The position numbers and the translations under genes were made by a program. Shown here one piece after another: positions 3,467-64,000 of a stretch of 64,000 bases of DNA. Within the stretch, counting starts at the first letter, position 1; the number at the start of each line of letters is the position of its first letter. The notes under the pieces were generated by a model. It made no database searches. It was not told the DNA's origin and saw nothing but the letters and a program-made list of their open reading frames with translations. The stretch is from Alphaproteobacteria bacterium (GTDB lineage Bacteria; Pseudomonadota; Alphaproteobacteria; Bin95), in assembly GCA_965205265.1 (NCBI GenBank), contig CBDBGH010000003.1, positions 3,872,001 to 3,936,000 on the forward strand. The letters run 5' to 3'.

Positions 3467-3838
3467 TCACTCCGCCGGCTCTGCGGCCGGGTCGTTGCGG
3501 CGCATGATGTAGCGCTCCAGCAGATCGAGCTTGCCCCTGATGAAGCCGACCTCGACCCTGAGGGCAACGACCTCCTCCCGCACGGACGCAATCTCGCTTC
3601 CGAGGGAGTCGCGCACGGACGCAATCTCGCTTCCGAGGGAGTCGCGCACGGACGCGATCTCGCCGCGCACGGATGCGATTTCGCCCCTCAGCGTGTCCCG
3701 GACCTCCGCGACCTCGCCGCGCACGGACGCGATATCGGCGCGCAGCAAGCGGAACAGCGCCAGCGTCAGGCCGGCCATCGCCGCAAAGAAGGCGATGAAG
3801 CCGGCGAGAACGGGCCAGACCTGGAGAACGGCTTCCAT
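3467..3838 (-). CDS. Small membrane-anchored coiled-coil protein with 11-residue repeats (DUF1640/CCDC90-like architecture)
   Basis: N-terminal hydrophobic helix, then EIASVRDSLGS repeats (33-nt tandem units); GGGAG RBS. Confidence 0.75.
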   Translation of the reverse strand: MEAVLQVWPVLAGFIAFFAAMAGLTLALFRLLRADIASVRGEVAEVRDTLRGEIASVRGEIASVRDSLGSEIASVRDSLGSEIASVREEVVALRVEVGFIRGKLDLLERYIMRRNDPAAEPAE

Positions 3839-7029: not shown

Positions 7030-7920
7030 GGGGCGGAAATAAGAACAATAATGATAATTTTCTGTATTCAGACTTGAAATACCAGCAGGCCGTCGCCAGA
7101 TTGGGGCCGGTGGAACGGAGGCGGCAGTCCGGATGCCGCCCCGTTTCGCGCCGGCGCGAAAAGACCCCGACCGGGCGGACAGGAGAGGTGCGCCCGGCGC
7201 CCGGCCTGTCGCCCGCGGGCGCAGGCACGGGCAATCAGGCGCGCAAACCGCGCCGCCGCGAAACGCGCGCCCGCGGGCGCGGGCGCCCGCGCGCGTTACG
7301 CGCGAATCAGGGTCCCGCCGCAGGAGGCAACCTGGCGGCGGGGAGGAGGGAACGGAGTGGAACGAAATGCGATGAAGGAACGATGTGCAGCATTCCTCAT
7401 CCGTCACCCCGGCTCGGAGGCCGGGGTAACCCCCGCTTTCGCGAGGGCCGGCGGGGCGCGGAACGCGGCTTGCCGGCGGGAGGGGAGACAGCGGGGCCTT
7501 CCTCATGCCCGAAAGGGTAGGCGCCTATGCGCCGCCCGCATGGAGATCATGACATCGCATGACAGACCATGACAGTTCACGACGCCCCGATGGGGATGCC
7601 GCCTCCACGCAGGCCCCTCTCCTCCAGGGAGAAGATCGGGTGAGGGCCTGCATGCGCGCCGGCGGAAGCGGCGGCGCCAACGCCGCCATTCGTATCGTTC
7701 GCCGCGTTCGGCGCGGCAGTGGGCGAAGCCCGGGAAACGCCTGTCGCGCGGAGAGGGCCCCCTCCCGGCCTTCCCTGCAAGCGGGAGAGGGGGAGAAAGG
7801 AGCAGGCGAAGGAGGGGGATTCGAGAAAGGACGGGCCCCATGCCCGAATTGGCTACTGCCTATGCGTCGCCCGCATGGAGATCATGACATCGCATGACAG
7901 ACCGTGACATGTCATGACGC
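7030..7920 (+). repeat. Dispersed element copy A: promoter-like segment, conserved leader and two phased CATGACA arrays
   Basis: 7225-7274 is 47/50 identical to 62685-62734; ~80-bp direct repeats at 7504-7585 and 7839-7920; CATGACA-like motifs every 10 bp. Confidence 0.75.
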
Positions 7921-9201
7921 GCCCGGCAGGCCCTCCGGCTTCGGCCCGCCCGTCGCCCAGTCGAGAAGCTGGGCGGTGTGGAGGACGGGGAGGCTCGTCG
8001 CGCCGGCGATCTGGACCATGCAGCCGATATTGCCGGCGGCGACGGCGTCCGGGCGCGTGCTCTCGATATGCGCCGCCTTGCGTGCGCCGAGCCGCCCCGC
8101 CAGCTCCGGCTGCAGCAGGTTGTAGGTGCCGGCGGACCCGCAGCAGATATGGCCCTCCGGCACGGCAAGCGGCGCGAAGCCCGCCGCCTCCAGCAGGCGC
8201 ACCGGCAGGTCCGCGATCTTCTGCCCGTGCTGCATCGAGCAGGCCGAGTGGTAGGCGATGCGCAGCTTCGGGGCCGTTCCCCGGGCGCGCGCCGCGAAGC
8301 CGAGCTCGTCCAGCACTTCGGTGAGGTCGCGCGTGCGCGCGGAGACCCGGGCGGCGTTCTCCGCCAGCGCCGGGTCGCCCCGCAGCATGTAGCCGTAGTC
8401 CTTGACCTGCGTGCCGCAGCCGGAGGCATTGACGACGATGCGGTCCGGCCGGGCGCTGAGCCAGGCGCGGACATTGGCCGCCGCCGCGCGCCTGCCGTCT
8501 TCGGCCCGCCCCATATGGTGGACCAGCGCCCCGCAGCAGCCCACCCCCTCCGCCACCACCACCTCCGCGCCGAAGCGCGTCAGCAGGCGCACCGTCGCCT
8601 CGTTGATGGCGGGGTCGAGCACCGTCTGCGCGCAGCCCGTCAGCAGCGCCACGCGCAGTCGCCTCTCCCCCTCGGCCGGGAAGGTCTGCGGGCGGTCCGC
8701 GGGCGAGGGCGTCGGCAGGCGGCGGGGCGCCATGCCCGCCATCGCGCCGAGCCGGCCCGGCAGCAAGCGGGCGAAGGGCTTCGCCGCCATCGCGCCGAGC
8801 AGGGCCCAGCGGAAGAGCGCCGGGCGCGGCAGCACGAAGGCGAGCCACCGGCGCAGCCAGCGCTCCGGCAGCGGGCGGGCGAAGGTCCGCTCGATATGGG
8901 CGCGCGCATGGTCCACCAGATGCATGTAGTTCACGCCCGAGGGGCAGGTGGTCATGCAGGAGAGGCAGGACAGGCAGCGGTCGATATGGCGCACCGTCAG
9001 CGCGTCGGCCGCCCGGTCGTTCTCCAGCATGTCCTTGATGAGGTAAATGCGCCCGCGCGGACTGTCGAGCTCGTCGCCGAGCAGCTTGAAGGTCGGGCAG
9101 GTGGCGGTGCAGAAGCCGCAATGCACGCAGCGCCGGAGGATCTGCTCGGAGGCCGCGACATCGGGATCGGCAAGCTGCGCCAGGCTGAAATTCGTCTGCA
9201 T
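7912..9201 (-). CDS. glcF: Glycolate oxidase iron-sulfur subunit
   Basis: MQTNFSLAQLADP start, CVHCGFCTATCP, CLSCLSCMTTCP, CCG domains. Confidence 0.95.
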   Translation of the reverse strand: MQTNFSLAQLADPDVAASEQILRRCVHCGFCTATCPTFKLLGDELDSPRGRIYLIKDMLENDRAADALTVRHIDRCLSCLSCMTTCPSGVNYMHLVDHARAHIERTFARPLPERWLRRWLAFVLPRPALFRWALLGAMAAKPFARLLPGRLGAMAGMAPRRLPTPSPADRPQTFPAEGERRLRVALLTGCAQTVLDPAINEATVRLLTRFGAEVVVAEGVGCCGALVHHMGRAEDGRRAAAANVRAWLSARPDRIVVNASGCGTQVKDYGYMLRGDPALAENAARVSARTRDLTEVLDELGFAARARGTAPKLRIAYHSACSMQHGQKIADLPVRLLEAAGFAPLAVPEGHICCGSAGTYNLLQPELAGRLGARKAAHIESTRPDAVAAGNIGCMVQIAGATSLPVLHTAQLLDWATGGPKPEGLPGAS

Positions 9202-52528: not shown

Positions 52529-52843
52529 ATGAGCGCGGAGATGATTGCGATCCTGGCCGTCGGCGTGGCGCTGGCGGGCCTTGTGCTGCGGGGCCAGCAC
52601 GGCCTCGGCAGGCGCGTGGACGAACTCCGCGAAGACTTGGGCGCGCTCCGCGCAGACCTGGACCGGCGGGTGGGCGAACTCCGCGAAGACTTGGGCACGC
52701 TCCGCGGGGACATTGCCGGGCTCGATGCGCGGCTGCGGGGCGTGGAGACCGGCCTTGCCGAGGTGAGGGGCCAGTTGACGATGGTGCGGGACTACATCAC
52801 GGGCCGCAACCTGCGCGAGGCGGAGCCGGGCGCGGAGGAGTGA
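52529..52843 (+). CDS. Small membrane-anchored coiled-coil protein
   Basis: MSAEMIAILAVGVALAGL TM helix, then RRVxELREDLGxLR repeated (54-nt unit); GAGAGG RBS. Confidence 0.75.
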   Translation: MSAEMIAILAVGVALAGLVLRGQHGLGRRVDELREDLGALRADLDRRVGELREDLGTLRGDIAGLDARLRGVETGLAEVRGQLTMVRDYITGRNLREAEPGAEE

Positions 52844-60849: not shown

Positions 60850-60930
60850 TTTTGGGGCTTATATGGACAGGTTGACAACAGGTTTGCGAGGCTTCGCGCC
60901 TTCTCTCCAACGTCATACCCGCCTTCATAT

Positions 60931-61013
60931 CGTCATGGCCGGACTTGTTCCGGCCATCCACGCGGTCTCCCGGCGACCGGCGCGTCTTGCCGATAGAGAT
61001 GCCCGGAACAAGT
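60931..61013. repeat. REP doublet whose second unit is interrupted by the MITE
   Basis: CGTCATGGCCGGACTTGTTCCGGCCATCC ... GATGCCCGGAACAAGT; related doublets at 61154-61240 and 63448-63525. Confidence 0.8.
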
Positions 61014-61376
61014 CCATTGCTGTCCGGTTCAGCCATTGGGTGAGGCTGAACAGGAGTCCGCCGGGGGTTTCGGGGGCGCGCGGCGTCTGCGATCCGCCCC
61101 TTGCCCGTGAGGCTCGAACGCCCCCCTTCGGCAGGCTCAGGGCAGGCTCTTTCGTCATGCCCGGACTTGTTCCGGGTATCCATACGGCCGCCCGGCTGAG
61201 CCGCTTGAGAGAGATACCCGGAACAAGTCCGGGTATGACGATATGGGGCGCGTATGACGATGTGAGGGCCGGGCCGCCGGGCGTCGATCCGGGTCCCGAT
61301 CCCGCCGAACCCCTCGAAACCCGGTTGAATCCAAGCCATGCGCCCTGCCCGCAAATCCTGAACCGGACAGCAATGG
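61014..61376. mobile_element. 363-bp MITE with perfect 19-bp TIRs and 7-bp target duplication
   Basis: CCATTGCTGTCCGGTTCAG at 61014-61032 and its reverse complement at 61358-61376; AACAAGT at 61007-61013 and 61377-61383. Confidence 0.88.
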
Positions 61377-61637: not shown

Positions 61638-62120
61638 ATGAAGGGCGACAAGAAGGTCATCGCAATACTCAACGATGTGCTAAAGAACGAGCTGACGGCG
61701 ATCAACCAGTATTTCCTGCATTCCCGCATGCTGAAGAACTGGGGAATCTCGAGGCTTGCAAAACACGAATACGAGGAATCGGTCGATGAGATGCGCCACG
61801 CCGACGAGCTCGTCGAACGCATCCTGTTCCTCGAGGGCCTGCCCAACCTCCAGGACATCGGCAGGCTGCGCATCGGCGAGACGGTGCAGGAAATCCTCGA
61901 CGCCGACCTCGCGCTGGAGCATGAGGCGATTCCCGCGCTGCGCGAAGGCATCGCCCATTGCGAAGCGGTCTCCGACTATGTGACCCGTCACCTGCTGCGC
62001 GAAATCCTCGAAAGCGAGGAGGAGCATGTGGACTGGCTGGAGACCCAGGGGGAACTCATCTCCCGCATGGGCATGCAGAACTACATCCAGCTTCAGAGCA
62101 AACCGGCCGACGACGACTGA
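61638..62120 (+). CDS. bfr: Bacterioferritin
   Basis: [45 protein letters not shown]. Confidence 0.97.
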
Positions 62121-62144
62121 GGGAGGGCTCCGGCGGCCGGCGCC

Positions 62145-62363
62145 TCAACCGGCGCGCACGCCGGACGGCTCCACGGCGGAAACCGCATGGGCGGCGGGCG
62201 CGCCGTGCTCCCGGTCGATCAGGTCCTGGGCAACCGGCAGGCAGCGGCCGCATCGGGGGCCGCTGCCAAGCGCGGCATAGGCCTTGTGCACGCAACGCAG
62301 GCCCGATCGCGCCGCCTCGCGGATCTCGGCATCGCGATAGGCGTTGCAGACGCAGACATACAT
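62145..62363 (-). CDS. bfd: Bacterioferritin-associated ferredoxin
   Basis: MYVCVCNAY...CGRC; GGAGG RBS; adjacent to bfr. Confidence 0.9.
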   Translation of the reverse strand: MYVCVCNAYRDAEIREAARSGLRCVHKAYAALGSGPRCGRCLPVAQDLIDREHGAPAAHAVSAVEPSGVRAG

Positions 62364-62406
62364 GCCGCCGCCTCCGGATGAACCCATGGACTCTGGCCAG
62401 TCTGCA

Positions 62407-62425
62407 AATGCAAGTCAATCGCAAA
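62407..62425. promoter_or_regulatory. Fur/iron-box-like site upstream of bfd
   Basis: AATGCAAGTCAATCGCAAA resembles the box at 61477. Confidence 0.5.
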
Positions 62426-62499
62426 TTTGACAGGCGCCGCTTGCGGGACCATCGCATTCGTGCATGAGGCGCAATCCGGCATGAATCCGGCGGCCGGTC

Positions 62500-63409
62500 G
62501 ATGCGAACATTTATTGTTCCAAATAATCGAGTAATATTTCTCTATAAGACTTGCGTTTTCAGAAAGTGTGCTATTATGGGTTCGAGGGAAGCGGCATCCA
62601 TGGACCGCGTCCCGCCCGCGCCGGCCCGGTGCGGACCGACCCCGATTCAGCCGACAGGCGAAGTGCGCCCTGTGCCCGCCTCGCGCACGCGCAATCAGGC
62701 GCGCGAACCGCGCCGCCGCGAAACGCCCGCCCGCCCGCGCACAGGCGCCCGCGCAGGATGACGCGCGAATAAGGGTCGCTCCCCGCCGGGCCGGTGTGCC
62801 GGATGAACGCGAACCGGAACGAAGGAGCCGCACCCATGCCCGTGCTCGACCCGACCCTCTCCCTCTCCTCCCGCCAGGAAGCCTTCTGCAATCACTACCA
62901 TGACAAAACACGAGTTAACATGACATTCCGTGACACGCCGCAACAGCCTGTCCAACCGGCGTCGTCCCGGACGGCGCGAAGCAGCCTGCCCCGGACCCCG
63001 ATCCGGGGTCGATCCGGGACCTCAGGCGGCCCGGCGTCATTCCGGCTGGAGCGCAGCGGACGGGACCGCACCGGCAGGCGACCTGCCCCGGCCGAGGACA
63101 CTTACGACTCGGAGCAGTTCCCCGGCGAGTGGGCCGACGGAGACCGCCCGAGCGAGGAGGAGCGGGCCGGGGGCGTGGAAACCGACTGGCTCTACCAGCG
63201 CCGCAACGACTATGCCGAACTCCACGACCCCTGGCCGCCGGAGAACATCGAACGCCGCCAGGCGGACAGCCTCAACCGGCTCGAAAGGGCCGGCCCCTTC
63301 AACCTGCCCGCCCCCGACCATGACATTTCATGACATCCCATGACGTGGCGCGGGGGACCGCTGCAATTCCCCTCCTCCCCTGCCTGCGAGAAAGATCAGG
63401 AGGGGGTAG
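62500..63409 (+). repeat. Dispersed element copy B: promoter-like segment, conserved leader, ORF and two phased CATGACA arrays
   Basis: Collinear similarity to 7070-7315; arrays at 62899-62935 and 63319-63345. Confidence 0.75.
62836..63333 (+). pseudogene. ORF starting like a phage terminase small subunit (LSSRQEAFCNHY), apparently internally deleted
   Basis: GAAGGAG RBS; similarity to the TerS L-[ST]-x-[KR]-Q-x-x-F-C-x-x-Y start stops at the first CATGACA array. Confidence 0.45.
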
Positions 63410-63525
63410 TACCAGTGGCCTCGACTTCGAACTCATGTCTTCTTCTCGTCATGCCCGGACTTGTTCCGGGCATCCAAGCGGCCGCTCGGTGAAGGTGGTT
63501 GAGAGAGATGCCCGGAACAAGTCCG

Positions 63526-64000
63526 CCTGACTTCGACGGTTGATTCGCATAAGTAGTTGATATTGCCTGGTTCTCATTTCGGCTAGGCACTACATCCGGC
63601 ATTTCTTCGAGCCGTGCTTCGTCGACGGTCAGGCGAGTTGATACGGGGTGATCGTCAGGGGCAGCCCCATGGTTGCGTAAATCTGCTCCGCCGCCGGTGT
63701 CGGCTTCGAGGGGATGACGTAGCGGTTGCCCGATTGCCGACAGCGCAGCAGGGAGCACTGGCGGTGGACGAGGGCGGAGCGGATGACCTCCGGGGACATC
63801 CGCCGCTTCTGGATGGCGACGCGGTACGCAAGGTGTCGAACGCAGGCGAAGGCCAGGAAGGCGATGGCGATGTGAGCGCGGATCCGGTCCGGGTTCCAGT
63901 GCCAGATGGGACGTATCTTCAGGTCGTGTTTGGTGATCCGGAAGCTCTCCTCGACCTGCCAGAGCCCCTGGTAGTGAGCCATCACTTCGGTGACGCGCGC
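63526..64000 (-). mobile_element. IS1634 family insertion sequence (3' end)
   Basis: Transposase C-terminus plus terminal ...GTCGAAGTCAGG abutting a cut REP unit. Confidence 0.8.
63629..64000 (-). CDS. IS1634 family DDE transposase (5'-truncated by the window edge)
   Basis: YQGLWQVEESFRITKHDLKIRPIWHW..DRIRAHIAIAFLA. Confidence 0.9.
   Translation of the reverse strand, partial: ARVTEVMAHYQGLWQVEESFRITKHDLKIRPIWHWNPDRIRAHIAIAFLAFACVRHLAYRVAIQKRRMSPEVIRSALVHRQCSLLRCRQSGNRYVIPSKPTPAAEQIYATMGLPLTITPYQLA

What the first reader, a model, noticed from the sequence alone, without database searches (positions are those of the whole stretch)
62500..63409. Orphan terminase-small-subunit-like cassette with phased CATGACA arrays (copy B): candidate undescribed element
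Seen: an AT-rich promoter-like segment (GAAC-N7-GTTC at 62505; TTGCGT...TGCTATTAT), the same leader as copy A and a strong RBS. The ORF MPVLDPTLSLSSRQEAFCNHY runs straight into an array (62899/909/919/929), passes REP fragments and stops inside a second array (63319/29/39), followed by a REP-like hairpin as in copy A. No other phage gene is in the window. Known: TerS proteins begin L-[ST]-x-[KR]-Q-x-x-F-x-x-x-Y, and pac sites often lie in or near terS. Inference: deleted derivatives of a dispersed cassette whose TerS-like HTH protein binds 10-bp-phased repeats, possibly marking chromosomal DNA for packaging (transduction/GTA-like) or for the cassette's own spread. The TerS call rests on only ~12 residues.
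Basis: partly seen in the sequence, partly recalled or inferred. Interest (0 to 1): 0.8.

Follow-up and report, generated by a model that had tools for sequence, protein, structure and literature searches.

The report
Dispersed terminase-like cassettes ending in CATGACA arrays
This locus is a broken copy of a previously undescribed, many-copy genetic cassette whose intact members carry a phage-packaging-type DNA-binding protein and always end in a short phased DNA repeat, and which looks like a new kind of selfish or mobile element rather than a prophage remnant.

Summary
At 62484-63345 there is an AT-rich promoter-like end, a ~250-nt conserved leader, an RBS, a 165-aa ORF, and two arrays of CATGACA units at exact 10-bp phase.

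Copy B is an internally deleted member of a genome-wide family. The genome has 74 leader loci and 106 arrays. 64 of the 74 leaders have a same-strand array downstream.

Seven full-length ~1.25-kb copies are 92-99% identical to one another. Each encodes a 308-aa protein whose first ~85 residues are a Terminase_2 (SF6/SPP1 small-terminase) DNA-binding domain. The rest of the protein is conserved but matches no family. Copy B has lost this domain.

The protein, the leader and the arrays co-occur. All three are present in 13 of the 17 genus genomes searched (G000 included) and in none of 24 genomes outside the genus. In relatives, 22 of 24 loci examined end the gene in the same kind of array.

The genome has no large terminase or HK97 capsid gene. 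The protein was not found in 50,697 phage records, 72,556 plasmid records or viral contigs.

My best reading is a new autonomous/non-autonomous cassette family whose TerS-derived protein binds the phased arrays. Binding and the way the cassettes spread are inferred, not shown. I found no target-site duplications, no terminal inverted repeats and no known transposase.

The parts
62484..62582 (+). Left end of the cassette. It is an AT-rich promoter-like segment holding the GAAC-N7-GTTC palindrome (62505-62519), the -35-like TTGCGT (62551-56) and the extended -10 TGC-TATTAT (62569-77).
   Evidence: Homology to the full-length copies begins at 62483, and at 62468 for one copy. The segment is conserved across 11 copies and in relatives. 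The tool's consensus scan found no 16-18-nt-spaced promoter here.
62583..62835 (+). Conserved GC-rich leader (5' untranslated region), ending in the RBS AAGGAG at 62822-27.
   Evidence: There are 74 leader loci in the genome. The leader is 74-88% identical upstream of the TerS-like genes in 44 loci of other genomes. It has no Rfam match. No compensatory base-pair changes were seen.
62836..63333 (+). ORF of 165 aa. It is the remnant of the TerS-like gene: the first 21 codons, an internal array and filler, then the last ~80 codons in frame.
   Evidence: The ORF has no Pfam family. Residues 218-304 of the full-length protein match 63085-63348 at 72% identity.
62899..62935 (+). Internal array at the deletion junction. 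Its units are CATGACA, a degenerate unit, CATGACA and CGTGACA, spaced 10 bp apart.
   Evidence: The same junction is shared by 3 other copies in the genome, at C3:1122020, C3:2173049 and C3:2603xxx.
62989..63019 (+). REP-like palindrome inserted in the filler segment. It is absent from the sister deleted copy L008.
63087..63318 (+). Segment homologous to the 3' third of the full-length gene. It encodes the conserved C-terminal motif ...TDWLYQRRNDYAE.HDPW.PEN....
   Evidence: It is 81-91% identical to 9 other copies. The motif is invariant or nearly invariant in 31 homologues.
63319..63345 (+). Terminal array: CATGACA, CATGACA and CATGACG at 10-bp phase. It is the right end of the cassette and holds the ORF's stop codon.
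   Evidence: Flanks diverge immediately after the array in 9 aligned copies.
7040..7925 (+). Copy A, a short ORF-less member. It consists of a promoter-like AT-rich end, the leader (about 7081-7394), and two 'module A + array' units at 7501-7588 and 7836-7923.
   Evidence: (family D5). The last array unit forms a palindrome that supplies the stop codon of the convergent glcF-like gene.

Best explanation
Copy B is a degenerate, non-autonomous member of an undescribed family of dispersed cassettes.

A cassette runs in one fixed order: an AT-rich end with its own promoter, a ~250-nt conserved leader, an RBS and start codon, a variable ORF, and a 3' terminal array of 2-4 CATGACA units at exact 10-bp phase in which the ORF stops.

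The 'autonomous' members are about 1.25 kb; this genome has 7, and related genomes gave 7-18 matches each. They encode a 308-aa protein with three parts:
- an SF6/SPP1-type small-terminase helix-turn-helix domain;
- a long helix after it;
- a conserved C-terminal two-thirds of unknown fold.

Most members are short derivatives that keep the promoter, leader and array but carry other ORFs or only remnants. Copy B belongs to a four-copy subtype in which the HTH-coding part was replaced by an array.

Proposed mechanism (inferred). The TerS-derived protein oligomerises and its HTH domains bind successive units of the array on one face of the DNA helix, as small terminases bind pac repeats. This nucleoprotein complex marks the cassette's 3' end. 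It either recruits a nuclease or recombinase, or acts through the conserved C-terminal region itself, to copy or move cassettes. This would explain why arrays and leaders exist only in genomes that have the protein.

Shown: the anatomy, the homology, the copy numbers, and the co-occurrence within and between genomes.
Inferred: DNA binding, oligomerisation, and mobility and its chemistry.
For: Anatomy and linkage within this genome:
- 74 leader loci and 106 arrays. 64 of 74 leaders have a same-strand array within 2.5 kb downstream. Only 16 of 106 arrays lack an upstream leader.

Full-length copies:
- Seven copies are 92.3-98.9% identical over 1187-1304 nt, with unrelated flanks and sharp ends.

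The protein:
- Pfam Terminase_2, E 4.1e-13, residues 11-85.
- PHROG small-terminase families.
- PDB sequence matches to SF6 G1P: 4zc3 and 2cmp at E about 1.6e-4.
- The best fold matches are small terminases: 40% identity and rmsd 0.8 A over 50 residues.
- The whole length is conserved in 31 homologues, with 71% mean column identity.

Gene-array link across evolution:
- In 22 of 24 relatives' loci examined, the ORF ends in or just before a 10-bp-phased array. This includes relatives at about 55% identity, where units read CCTGACA as well as CATGACA.

Co-occurrence across genomes:
- The 13 genus genomes with the protein (G000 included) have 103-319 array dimers each. The 4 genomes without it have 0, 0, 1 and 23.
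- The 24 genomes outside the genus have 0-1 dimers. The reversed-pattern control gives 0 everywhere.
- The leader is found in 14 of 41 genomes, all in the same genus.

Not a prophage:
- No match to Terminase_6N, TerL_ATPase, Terminase_6C, TerL_nuclease, Terminase_3 or HK97 capsid in this 99%-complete genome. There is only one sub-threshold portal fragment, on another contig.
- No tblastn match in phage or plasmid records, and none in viral contigs.
Against: - No mechanism of movement is visible. There are no terminal inverted repeats. There is no target-site duplication signal: longest shared flank word 4.0 against 4.25 +/- 0.13 in shuffled pairs. There is no strand bias: 35 of 74.
- No known transposase or recombinase domain is present in the protein. 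The C-terminal two-thirds is modelled with low confidence.
- No empty site was recovered, because synteny around copy A is not conserved in relatives. Insertion as an event is therefore inferred only from copy number and patchy distribution.
- Short derivatives keep the promoter, leader, RBS and ATG. A purely DNA-level mobile element would not be expected to need these, so this hints at a function of the transcript or its products.
- The profile match covers only the HTH half of Terminase_2 (positions 2-73 of 141).
- One genome (G008) has leader-like matches and 23 array dimers without the protein.
Confidence: 0.6

Rival explanations
1. Dispersed packaging sites. The TerS-like protein plus arrays would be chromosomal pac-like modules. 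They would capture the large terminase of an infecting phage or a GTA, so that host DNA, and the cassettes with it, is packaged from about 100 start points. This would serve transduction, or act as a decoy that interferes with phage packaging.
For: - The DNA-binding domain is homologous to SF6/SPP1 small terminase.
- The phased repeats lie at the 3' end of the terS-like gene. Pac sites of pac-type phages also lie in or beside terS (established knowledge, recalled).
- The C-terminal region is conserved but has no known family, so it could be a terminase-docking part.
Against: - The genome has no large terminase of five Pfam families and no HK97 capsid. It has only a sub-threshold portal fragment.
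- The protein has no tblastn match in 50,697 phage records or in viral contigs, so no cognate phage is known.
- This reading does not explain the multiplication of cassettes inside a genome.
- It does not explain why short derivatives keep the promoter, leader and start codon.
Confidence: 0.15
2. A domesticated regulon rather than a mobile element. The cassettes would be a paralogous family of small-protein or RNA genes under one promoter and leader. The TerS-like protein would be their DNA-binding regulator or a roadblock terminator at the arrays. The arrays also put TGA and ATG in all three reading frames, because 10 mod 3 = 1.
For: - The promoter-like end, leader, RBS and ATG are retained in nearly all members. 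Each ORF ends in the array.
- A second conserved cargo protein of about 200 aa exists in at least 7 copies.
- A subset of short members encodes a conserved ~31-aa peptide in frame.
- The leader is as conserved as the coding sequence across species.
Against: - The distribution is all-or-none and many-copy among species of one genus, with decayed remnants in one genome. That is the signature of a selfish element.
- Reading frames of the short ORFs are not kept across members.
- Codon-position entropy in the conserved module is flat: 0.88 / 0.96 / 1.01.
- There is no covariation for an RNA structure.
- No intrinsic terminators were found.
Confidence: 0.15
3. Ordinary remnant: a decayed prophage terS gene plus unrelated REP-type repeats that lie nearby by chance.
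For: - REP-type hairpins and IS copies are abundant around the locus.
- Public annotation names one homologue 'terminase small subunit'.
Against: - Leader, ORF and array are linked in fixed order at dozens of loci and in other genomes.
- There are seven near-identical full copies.
- There are no other phage packaging genes in the genome.
Confidence: 0.03

Closest known systems
Phage small terminase of the SPP1/SF6 type (Pfam Terminase_2) with its pac site
   Same: - The N-terminal helix-turn-helix domain is homologous, followed by a long helix.
- Repeated short motifs lie next to, or inside, the gene's own 3' end.
- Helical-turn phasing of the repeats fits DNA wrapped on an oligomer. That model is established knowledge, recalled, not tested here.
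   Different: - No large terminase, portal or capsid partner is present.
- The gene is present in 7-18 copies or matches per genome, not one.
- Only profile positions 2-73 of 141 match.
- The protein is twice the usual size, with a conserved extra region of unknown fold.
- Each copy has its own promoter and a long leader.
- It is not found in phage collections.
Insertion sequences with their non-autonomous derivatives (IS/MITE; REPIN-RAYT systems)
   Same: - Many dispersed copies with sharp ends and unrelated flanks.
- A few protein-coding copies and many short derivatives share the ends.
- The distribution among species of one genus is patchy.
- Copies break short-read assemblies: many loci sit at contig ends.
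   Different: - No DDE, HUH, serine or tyrosine recombinase domain is present.
- There are no inverted terminal repeats and no target duplications.
- The two ends are unlike each other.
- Derivatives keep a promoter, leader and start codon.
Phage satellites that carry their own small terminase (SaPI/PICI type)
   Same: A chromosomal element that encodes a TerS homologue without a large terminase (recalled knowledge of these satellites).
   Different: - Satellites are single-copy islands of several kb with an integrase, replication genes and regulators.
- These cassettes are 0.45-1.3 kb, carry one ORF, and occur in dozens to hundreds of copies.
Two-component eukaryotic transposons whose accessory DNA-binding protein binds subterminal repeats (PIF/Harbinger Myb-like ORF1; En/Spm TNPA)
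   Same: A non-catalytic sequence-specific DNA-binding protein encoded by the element, and arrays of short subterminal repeats as its sites. This is an analogy recalled from the literature. The title and abstract start of PMC2836001 were seen in the listing.
   Different: - Those elements also encode a DDE transposase and have inverted ends.
- No catalytic partner was found here.
Integron gene cassettes
   Same: Compact units of one ORF plus one recombination-type site at the 3' end, with variable cargo.
   Different: - Integron cassettes are promoterless and sit in one array beside an integrase gene.
- These cassettes are dispersed, each with its own promoter and leader.
- The 3' site here is a direct-repeat array, not an imperfect palindrome.

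Membership tests
Terminase small subunit (Pfam PF03592 Terminase_2) | N-terminal HTH DNA-binding domain that matches the family profile above its curated cut-off | tested here: met
   Full-length copies score 50.6 bits against a cut-off of 26.1, E 4.1e-13. Seven of 7 genomic hits are cassette copies. Copy B's own ORF matches 0 families.
Terminase small subunit (Pfam PF03592 Terminase_2) | Oligomerisation core, the second half of the profile | tested here: inconclusive
   Only profile positions 2-73 of 141 align. The model shows a long helix at 52-106. Full-length SF6 small terminase 3zqq aligns over 128 columns at rmsd 8.5 A, E 0.05.
Terminase small subunit (Pfam PF03592 Terminase_2) | Works with a large terminase encoded beside it or elsewhere in the genome | tested here: not met
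   Five large-terminase Pfam families and the HK97 capsid family give no match in the 98.98%-complete genome.
Terminase small subunit (Pfam PF03592 Terminase_2) | Binds repeated motifs of a pac or cos site | not testable with these tools
   The arrays are there, and they are linked to the gene in 22 of 24 relatives' loci. Binding needs EMSA or ChIP.
Insertion sequence / MITE | Multiple near-identical copies with defined ends in unrelated contexts | tested here: met
Insertion sequence / MITE | Element-encoded transposase of a known catalytic class | tested here: not met
   Pfam finds only Terminase_2. NCBIfam and PADLOC find nothing. No longer fused forms were found.
Insertion sequence / MITE | Terminal inverted repeats | tested here: not met
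   No inverted pair joins the two ends, either in a full copy or in copy B.
Insertion sequence / MITE | Target-site duplication | tested here: not met
   In 46 elements, the flank word shared between left and right is no longer than in shuffled pairs. The left boundary is fuzzy by about 50 nt, so a short duplication could have been missed.
Insertion sequence / MITE | Insertion / empty-site polymorphism | tested here: inconclusive
   The family is present or not found among species of one genus. No orthologous empty site could be recovered.
Structured regulatory RNA (leader) | Base pairs supported by compensatory changes, or a match to a described RNA family | tested here: not met
   0 Rfam matches at gathering score, and only chance-level matches at E up to 10. 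0 of 26 predicted pairs have a compensatory change. A candidate 10-bp long-range helix is 87.8% paired but does not vary.
Alphaproteobacterial LexA (SOS) box | Direct repeat GAAC-N7-GAAC in the promoter (motif recalled, not from a call) | tested here: not met
   The site at 62505-62519 is an inverted GAAC-N7-GTTC. Other copies have GAAACA-N4-5-TTGTTC-like variants. It lies about 30-45 nt upstream of the -35-like hexamer.

The most novel reading that the evidence does not exclude
These cassettes would be a new class of prokaryotic mobile element. Its only element-encoded protein is a small-terminase-derived DNA-binding oligomer that recognises helically phased CATGACA arrays at the element's end. 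Either its conserved, fold-unknown C-terminal region is a new catalytic or recruiting module, or transcription from the element's own promoter through the leader is part of the copying mechanism. On this reading, a phage packaging-recognition module has been turned into the recognition module of a transposable element. That element has colonised a genus of uncultured Alphaproteobacteria with 100-300 arrays per genome.
Probability: 0.35. Interest if true: 0.9.

Novelty: categorically new. Interest (0 to 1): 0.75.

Why it matters
If the reading holds, sequence-specific DNA recognition by a small terminase has been reused outside virus packaging. It would drive, or at least mark, a family of chromosomal cassettes that makes up hundreds of sites per genome.

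That would add a new protein class to the short list of machineries that multiply DNA inside bacterial genomes. It would also supply a natural pair of a compact DNA-binding domain and a simple 10-bp-phased site.

There is a practical consequence as well. Public annotation calls these genes 'terminase small subunit', which would wrongly flag prophages in these genomes.

Even the more modest readings would be new biology for a terminase fold. Those readings are a dispersed pac-like decoy, or a regulon with a TerS-derived regulator.

Tried and rejected
RNA family and structure. Rfam gave nothing at gathering score and only chance-level matches at E up to 10. RNAalifold on 47 leaders gave 26 pairs, none with a compensatory change. 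My own 10-bp helix is conserved but invariant. An RNA structure is neither shown nor excluded.

Micro-ORF in 'module A'. I tested the 15-codon frame MPE...AY.P..C(K/R)(T/S)* that ends at the first array unit. 60 copies were aligned. Codon-position entropy was 0.88 / 0.96 / 1.01. Longer small ORFs are in frame in some members and out of frame in others. I do not claim a peptide.

Left-end array. CATGA is enriched left of the cassettes: 26 observed against 7.1 expected in 53 elements. However, the hits are scattered and partly come from REP units and from the element's own TTGTTCATGAA motif. I reject this as evidence of a second array.

Empty sites. The genes flanking copy A are not neighbours in 5 relatives. 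The regions downstream of glcF are unrelated.

Replication-strand bias. None was found (35 of 74), and the GC-skew curve of the contig is irregular.

Homo-oligomer fold. Residues 1-130 in four copies gave no verdict. I do not use this either way.

Sequencing runs. Only contigs were available. Depth over the leader mirrors copy number in both DNA and RNA-labelled runs, so I make no claim about expression or habitat. The small-share runs were not interpreted. One contig of run X5 joins 63003 to 62322, and one contig of X20 joins 62732 to 63319; both remain unexplained. 62100-62468 is unique in this genome.

C-terminal region and second cargo protein. No Pfam, NCBIfam or PADLOC family was found, and there was no Atlas lead at 0.9 or above. 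The two proteins show no similarity to each other. No longer fused forms were found (the tool calls this weak evidence).

Literature. Three full-text searches were seen as listings with abstract starts only. None listed a paper on multi-copy small-terminase genes, CATGACA arrays or such cassettes. I read no paper in full, and supplements were closed. 'Undescribed' rests on these three searches, on the absence of any family name, and, where only one of the 120 homologues listed carries a name.

Full report
WHAT IS AT THE LOCUS

A bacterioferritin-like gene lies at 61638-62120 on the + strand. A small divergent ferredoxin-like ORF lies at 62145-62387 on the - strand. After them the sequence turns AT-rich at about 62484. 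The features that follow are:
- a GAAC-N7-GTTC palindrome at 62505-62519;
- TTGCGT at 62551-56, then 15 nt, then TGC-TATTAT at 62569-77;
- a GC-rich stretch of about 250 nt;
- AAGGAG at 62822-27;
- an ATG at 62836 that opens a 165-aa frame.

The frame runs through a first array. That array has CATGACA at 62899 and 62919, CGTGACA at 62929, and a degenerate unit at 62909. The frame then passes a REP-like palindrome at 62989-63019. It stops at the TGA of the second unit of a second array, which has units at 63319, 63329 and 63339.

The motif count is far above chance: 12 in the window against 3.34 +/- 1.75 expected, and 0 of 100 shuffles reached 12.

The tool's own promoter/terminator scan found nothing in 62400-63500. 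The -35-like and -10 hexamers are only 15 nt apart. The promoter call therefore rests on an extended -10 (TGn + hexamer) that is conserved across copies and species.

THE LOCUS BELONGS TO A GENOME-WIDE FAMILY

The window lies in a 5.46-Mb contig of a 5.70-Mb, 68% G+C genome.
- The exact dimer CATGACA-N3-CATGACA occurs 103 times on that contig and never on the two small contigs.
- With units allowed to read C[AG]TGAC[AG] and spacing of 9-11 nt, there are 106 arrays.
- BLAST with the two leaders finds 74 leader loci.
- 64 of the 74 leader loci have at least one array on the same strand within 2.5 kb downstream. Most are 70-500 nt away, with a second class at about 900 nt.
- Only 16 of 106 arrays have no leader upstream. 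Several of these are visibly cut off by IS insertions.

Leader and array are thus two ends of one oriented unit.

FULL-LENGTH MEMBERS

Seven units are about 1.25 kb long.
- They are 92.3-98.9% identical to each other over 1187-1304 nt.
- The homology starts 303-352 nt before the ATG and ends about 925 nt after it, immediately after the array.
- The flanks are unrelated.

Each encodes a 308-aa protein.
- Residues 11-85 match Pfam Terminase_2 (E 4.1e-13, 50.6 bits against a cut-off of 26.1), covering profile positions 2-73 of 141.
- PHROG small-terminase families match the same part.
- A profile of 31 homologues finds the SF6 G1P small-terminase DNA-binding domain among solved structures: 4zc3 and 2cmp at E about 1.6e-4, and 3zqp.
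- An AlphaFold model built on that alignment is confident only for residues about 10-110. This part is three short helices and a long helix. Mean pLDDT is 63.9.
- The model's best Foldseek matches are small terminases: 3zqq, then 4zc3 at 40% identity and rmsd 0.8 A over 50 residues, then 2cmp, PaP3 and NV1. All have weak E-values of 0.05 or worse, because the domain is short.
- The remaining two-thirds has no family in Pfam, NCBIfam or PADLOC, and no Atlas lead.
- That remainder is nevertheless strongly conserved. The 31 homologues share 71% mean column identity over the whole length, with many invariant acidic, aromatic and arginine positions.

It is correct for the family.

WHAT COPY B IS

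Compared with a full copy, 62899-63086 (188 nt) replaces 590 nt that encode residues 22 to about 215. The replacement begins exactly with an array.

Three other loci share the same junction: C3:1122020, C3:2173049 and L008. In copy B and in L008 the frame continues into the conserved C-terminal part. In the other two it does not.

Copy B's ORF has no Pfam match. It is therefore an HTH-less derivative and cannot itself bind DNA through a terminase domain.

Copy A (about 7040-7925) is a short member without a long ORF. It has a promoter-like end, the leader, and then two copies of a conserved ~50-nt 'module A' followed by an array (family D5).

About 10 further members carry a different cargo, a conserved ~200-aa protein of no known family.

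THE FAMILY IN OTHER GENOMES

The protein has at least 346 database relatives at E <= 1e-3 among the 8000 candidates scored. The best 120 are 63-97% identical over 86-100% of the query. 119 of those 120 carry PF03592. Several come from the same contig. Only one has a name, 'terminase small subunit'.

In species-representative genomes, 82 stretches encode relatives. All are in uncultured Alphaproteobacteria / 'Rhodospirillaceae' assemblies by record title. Many are at contig ends, and there are up to a dozen per contig.

In 22 of 24 loci I examined, the ORF ends in, or a few bases before, a 10-bp-phased array. This includes relatives at about 55% identity, whose units read CCTGACA as well as CATGACA. 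The two loci without an array are the most distant, about 50% identical over 115 residues.

The leader is 74-88% identical upstream of the gene in 44 of these loci. It aligns with long invariant blocks.

CO-OCCURRENCE ACROSS 41 GENOMES

- The protein is found in G000 and in 12 of 16 other genomes of its genus, with 7-18 matches each.
- It is not found in four complete genomes of the genus (G001, G003, G008, G013; 3.4-3.9 Mb).
- Outside the genus there are only single weak matches in G021, G023 and G025, plus nine ~34%-identical matches in G033.
- Array dimers number 103-319 in each of the 13 genomes with the protein. They number 1, 0, 23 and 0 in the four without it, and 0-1 in the 24 genomes outside the genus. 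The reversed control pattern gives 0 everywhere.
- The leader is found in 14 of 41 genomes. These are the same 13 plus G008, where the matches are weak (best E 5.8e-12). It is found nowhere outside the genus (at most 19 candidates were scored per genome).

Kin are not independent, so I give no statistic. The pattern is the one expected of an element family with coding and non-coding members. G008 looks like a genome holding only decaying remnants.

NOT A PROPHAGE

In the 98.98%-complete genome, Terminase_6N, TerL_ATPase, Terminase_6C, TerL_nuclease, Terminase_3 and HK97-type capsid give no match. Every control search did find these families in known genomes. The portal family gives one sub-threshold 99-aa fragment on the 43-kb contig. 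All 7 Terminase_2 matches are the cassette copies.

tblastn of the protein finds nothing in 72,556 plasmid records or 50,697 phage records at E <= 1e-3. A pattern scan of viral contigs confirmed no relative.

HOW IT MAY WORK

Shown:
- the fixed order of parts;
- the homology of the N-terminal domain to a DNA-binding domain that, in phages, recognises repeated motifs near its own gene;
- the exact helical-turn phasing of the units;
- the evolutionary and genomic coupling of protein, leader and arrays.

Inferred:
- that the protein binds the arrays as an oligomer;
- that this complex is what lets cassettes be copied or moved.

I could find no chemistry for movement.
- No inverted ends were found.
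- No target duplication was found: 4.0 against 4.25 +/- 0.13. The left boundary is uncertain by about 50 nt.
- No strand bias was found.
- No recognisable catalytic domain and no fused longer forms were found.
- No empty site could be recovered.

Two observations caution against a simple DNA-transposon picture.
- Short derivatives keep the promoter-like end, leader, RBS and start codon.
- Every ORF ends in the array. Because 10 = 3 x 3 + 1, three units place a TGA and an ATG in all three frames. This follows directly from the sequence.

In copy A, the last unit forms a palindrome with a reverse unit. This palindrome supplies the stop codon of the convergent glcF-like gene, which ends differently in four relatives.

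For these reasons I keep two rivals alive. One is a packaging or decoy role with a terminase from an infecting phage. The other is a regulon whose regulator is the TerS-like protein. A chance or prophage-remnant reading is excluded by the linkage data.

COMPARISON WITH KNOWN SYSTEMS AND NOVELTY

The domain is a member of Terminase_2. The system is not a terminase system: the partner is missing, the gene is in many copies, and the architecture is different.

It behaves like an IS/MITE family, but it fails three of the defining features I could test: a known transposase, inverted ends and target duplication.

It also differs from the other systems I considered.
- Terminase-bearing satellites are single-copy islands of several kb.
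- Integron cassettes are promoterless and clustered in one array.
- REPIN-RAYT systems depend on an HUH protein.

Three literature searches, seen as listings only, turned up no description. I therefore rate it as lying outside the known kinds. The caveat is that its mode of spread is unproven.

LIMITS

- All expression and mobility statements are inferences.
- Sequencing runs gave contigs only and support no claim.
- The homo-oligomer prediction gave no verdict.
- Supplements of papers were closed, and I read no paper beyond the search listings.

Noticed in passing
G033 loci L088-L093 (for example L088:1484-2333): A genome of another family holds at least 9 copies of a ~283-aa protein whose N-terminal domain is about 34% identical to the TerS-like domain. 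Each copy sits directly behind its own conserved promoter-like sequence. There is no long leader and no CATGACA array after the stop codon. Multi-copy terminase-like genes may therefore be a wider phenomenon with different end structures.
   Followed up: partly
G000:C3:646100-647750 (L098) and about 9 similar loci: A second cargo type uses the same leader and array. It is a conserved ~200-aa protein that starts MTATDPRP..., carries two YDGSED...W..QERR repeats, and has no Pfam, NCBIfam or PADLOC family.
   Followed up: partly
window 7904-7916: The stop codon of the convergent glcF-like gene (7912-...) lies inside the palindrome formed by the last array units of copy A. Four relatives end the gene with different last residues and different stop codons.
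   Followed up: yes
window 63439-63525, 60923-60976 and 61145-61231: There is an abundant REP-type hairpin family, with a core that reads ...CATGCCCGGACTTGTTCCGGGCATC.... It has well over 100 matches in the genome. Some of its units contain CATGACGA repeats at 20-28-nt spacing, which should not be confused with the 10-bp arrays.
   Followed up: partly
window 63525-64000: This is the end of an insertion sequence, with a transposase-like ORF on the - strand (63629 onward). Its terminal ~95 nt occur at 100% identity at more than 50 places in the genome. The same IS end abuts CATGACA arrays directly at C3:2837636 and C3:3856207, and abuts a cassette promoter at C3:689931.
   Followed up: no
G000:C3:42299, 840590, 980499, 1588531, 2146006 and 5413291: Another repeated element end (…CCTATCCATATAAGCCCCAAA) abuts the first CATGACA unit at six loci, in the place of 'module A'. 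Either other elements insert preferentially at the arrays, or further cassette types share the array end.
   Followed up: no
window 62322-63003, seen in run X5: One 341-nt contig of a DNA run joins 63003 directly to 62322 with no mismatches. Its depth is about three times that of the neighbouring single-copy gene. The same run does not cover 62144-62279. This could be a rearranged or tandem arrangement in a related strain. It remains unexplained.
   Followed up: partly
window 61638-62387: A bacterioferritin-like gene and a divergent small ferredoxin-like ORF lie immediately left of copy B. The cassette's AT-rich end sits in what would be their shared regulatory region.
   Followed up: no
window 3577-3717 and 52603-52710: There are tandem 33/54-nt and 54-nt direct repeats, probably coding repeats. 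They are unrelated to the cassettes.
   Followed up: no
G000 contig C3, whole: Cumulative GC skew has its minimum at 4.34 Mb and its maximum at 5.45 Mb, so the two arms are very unequal. Large segments near 0-43 kb recur at 4.63 Mb and 5.41 Mb. Contamination is estimated at 7.3%. The assembly may contain duplications or rearrangements.
   Followed up: no
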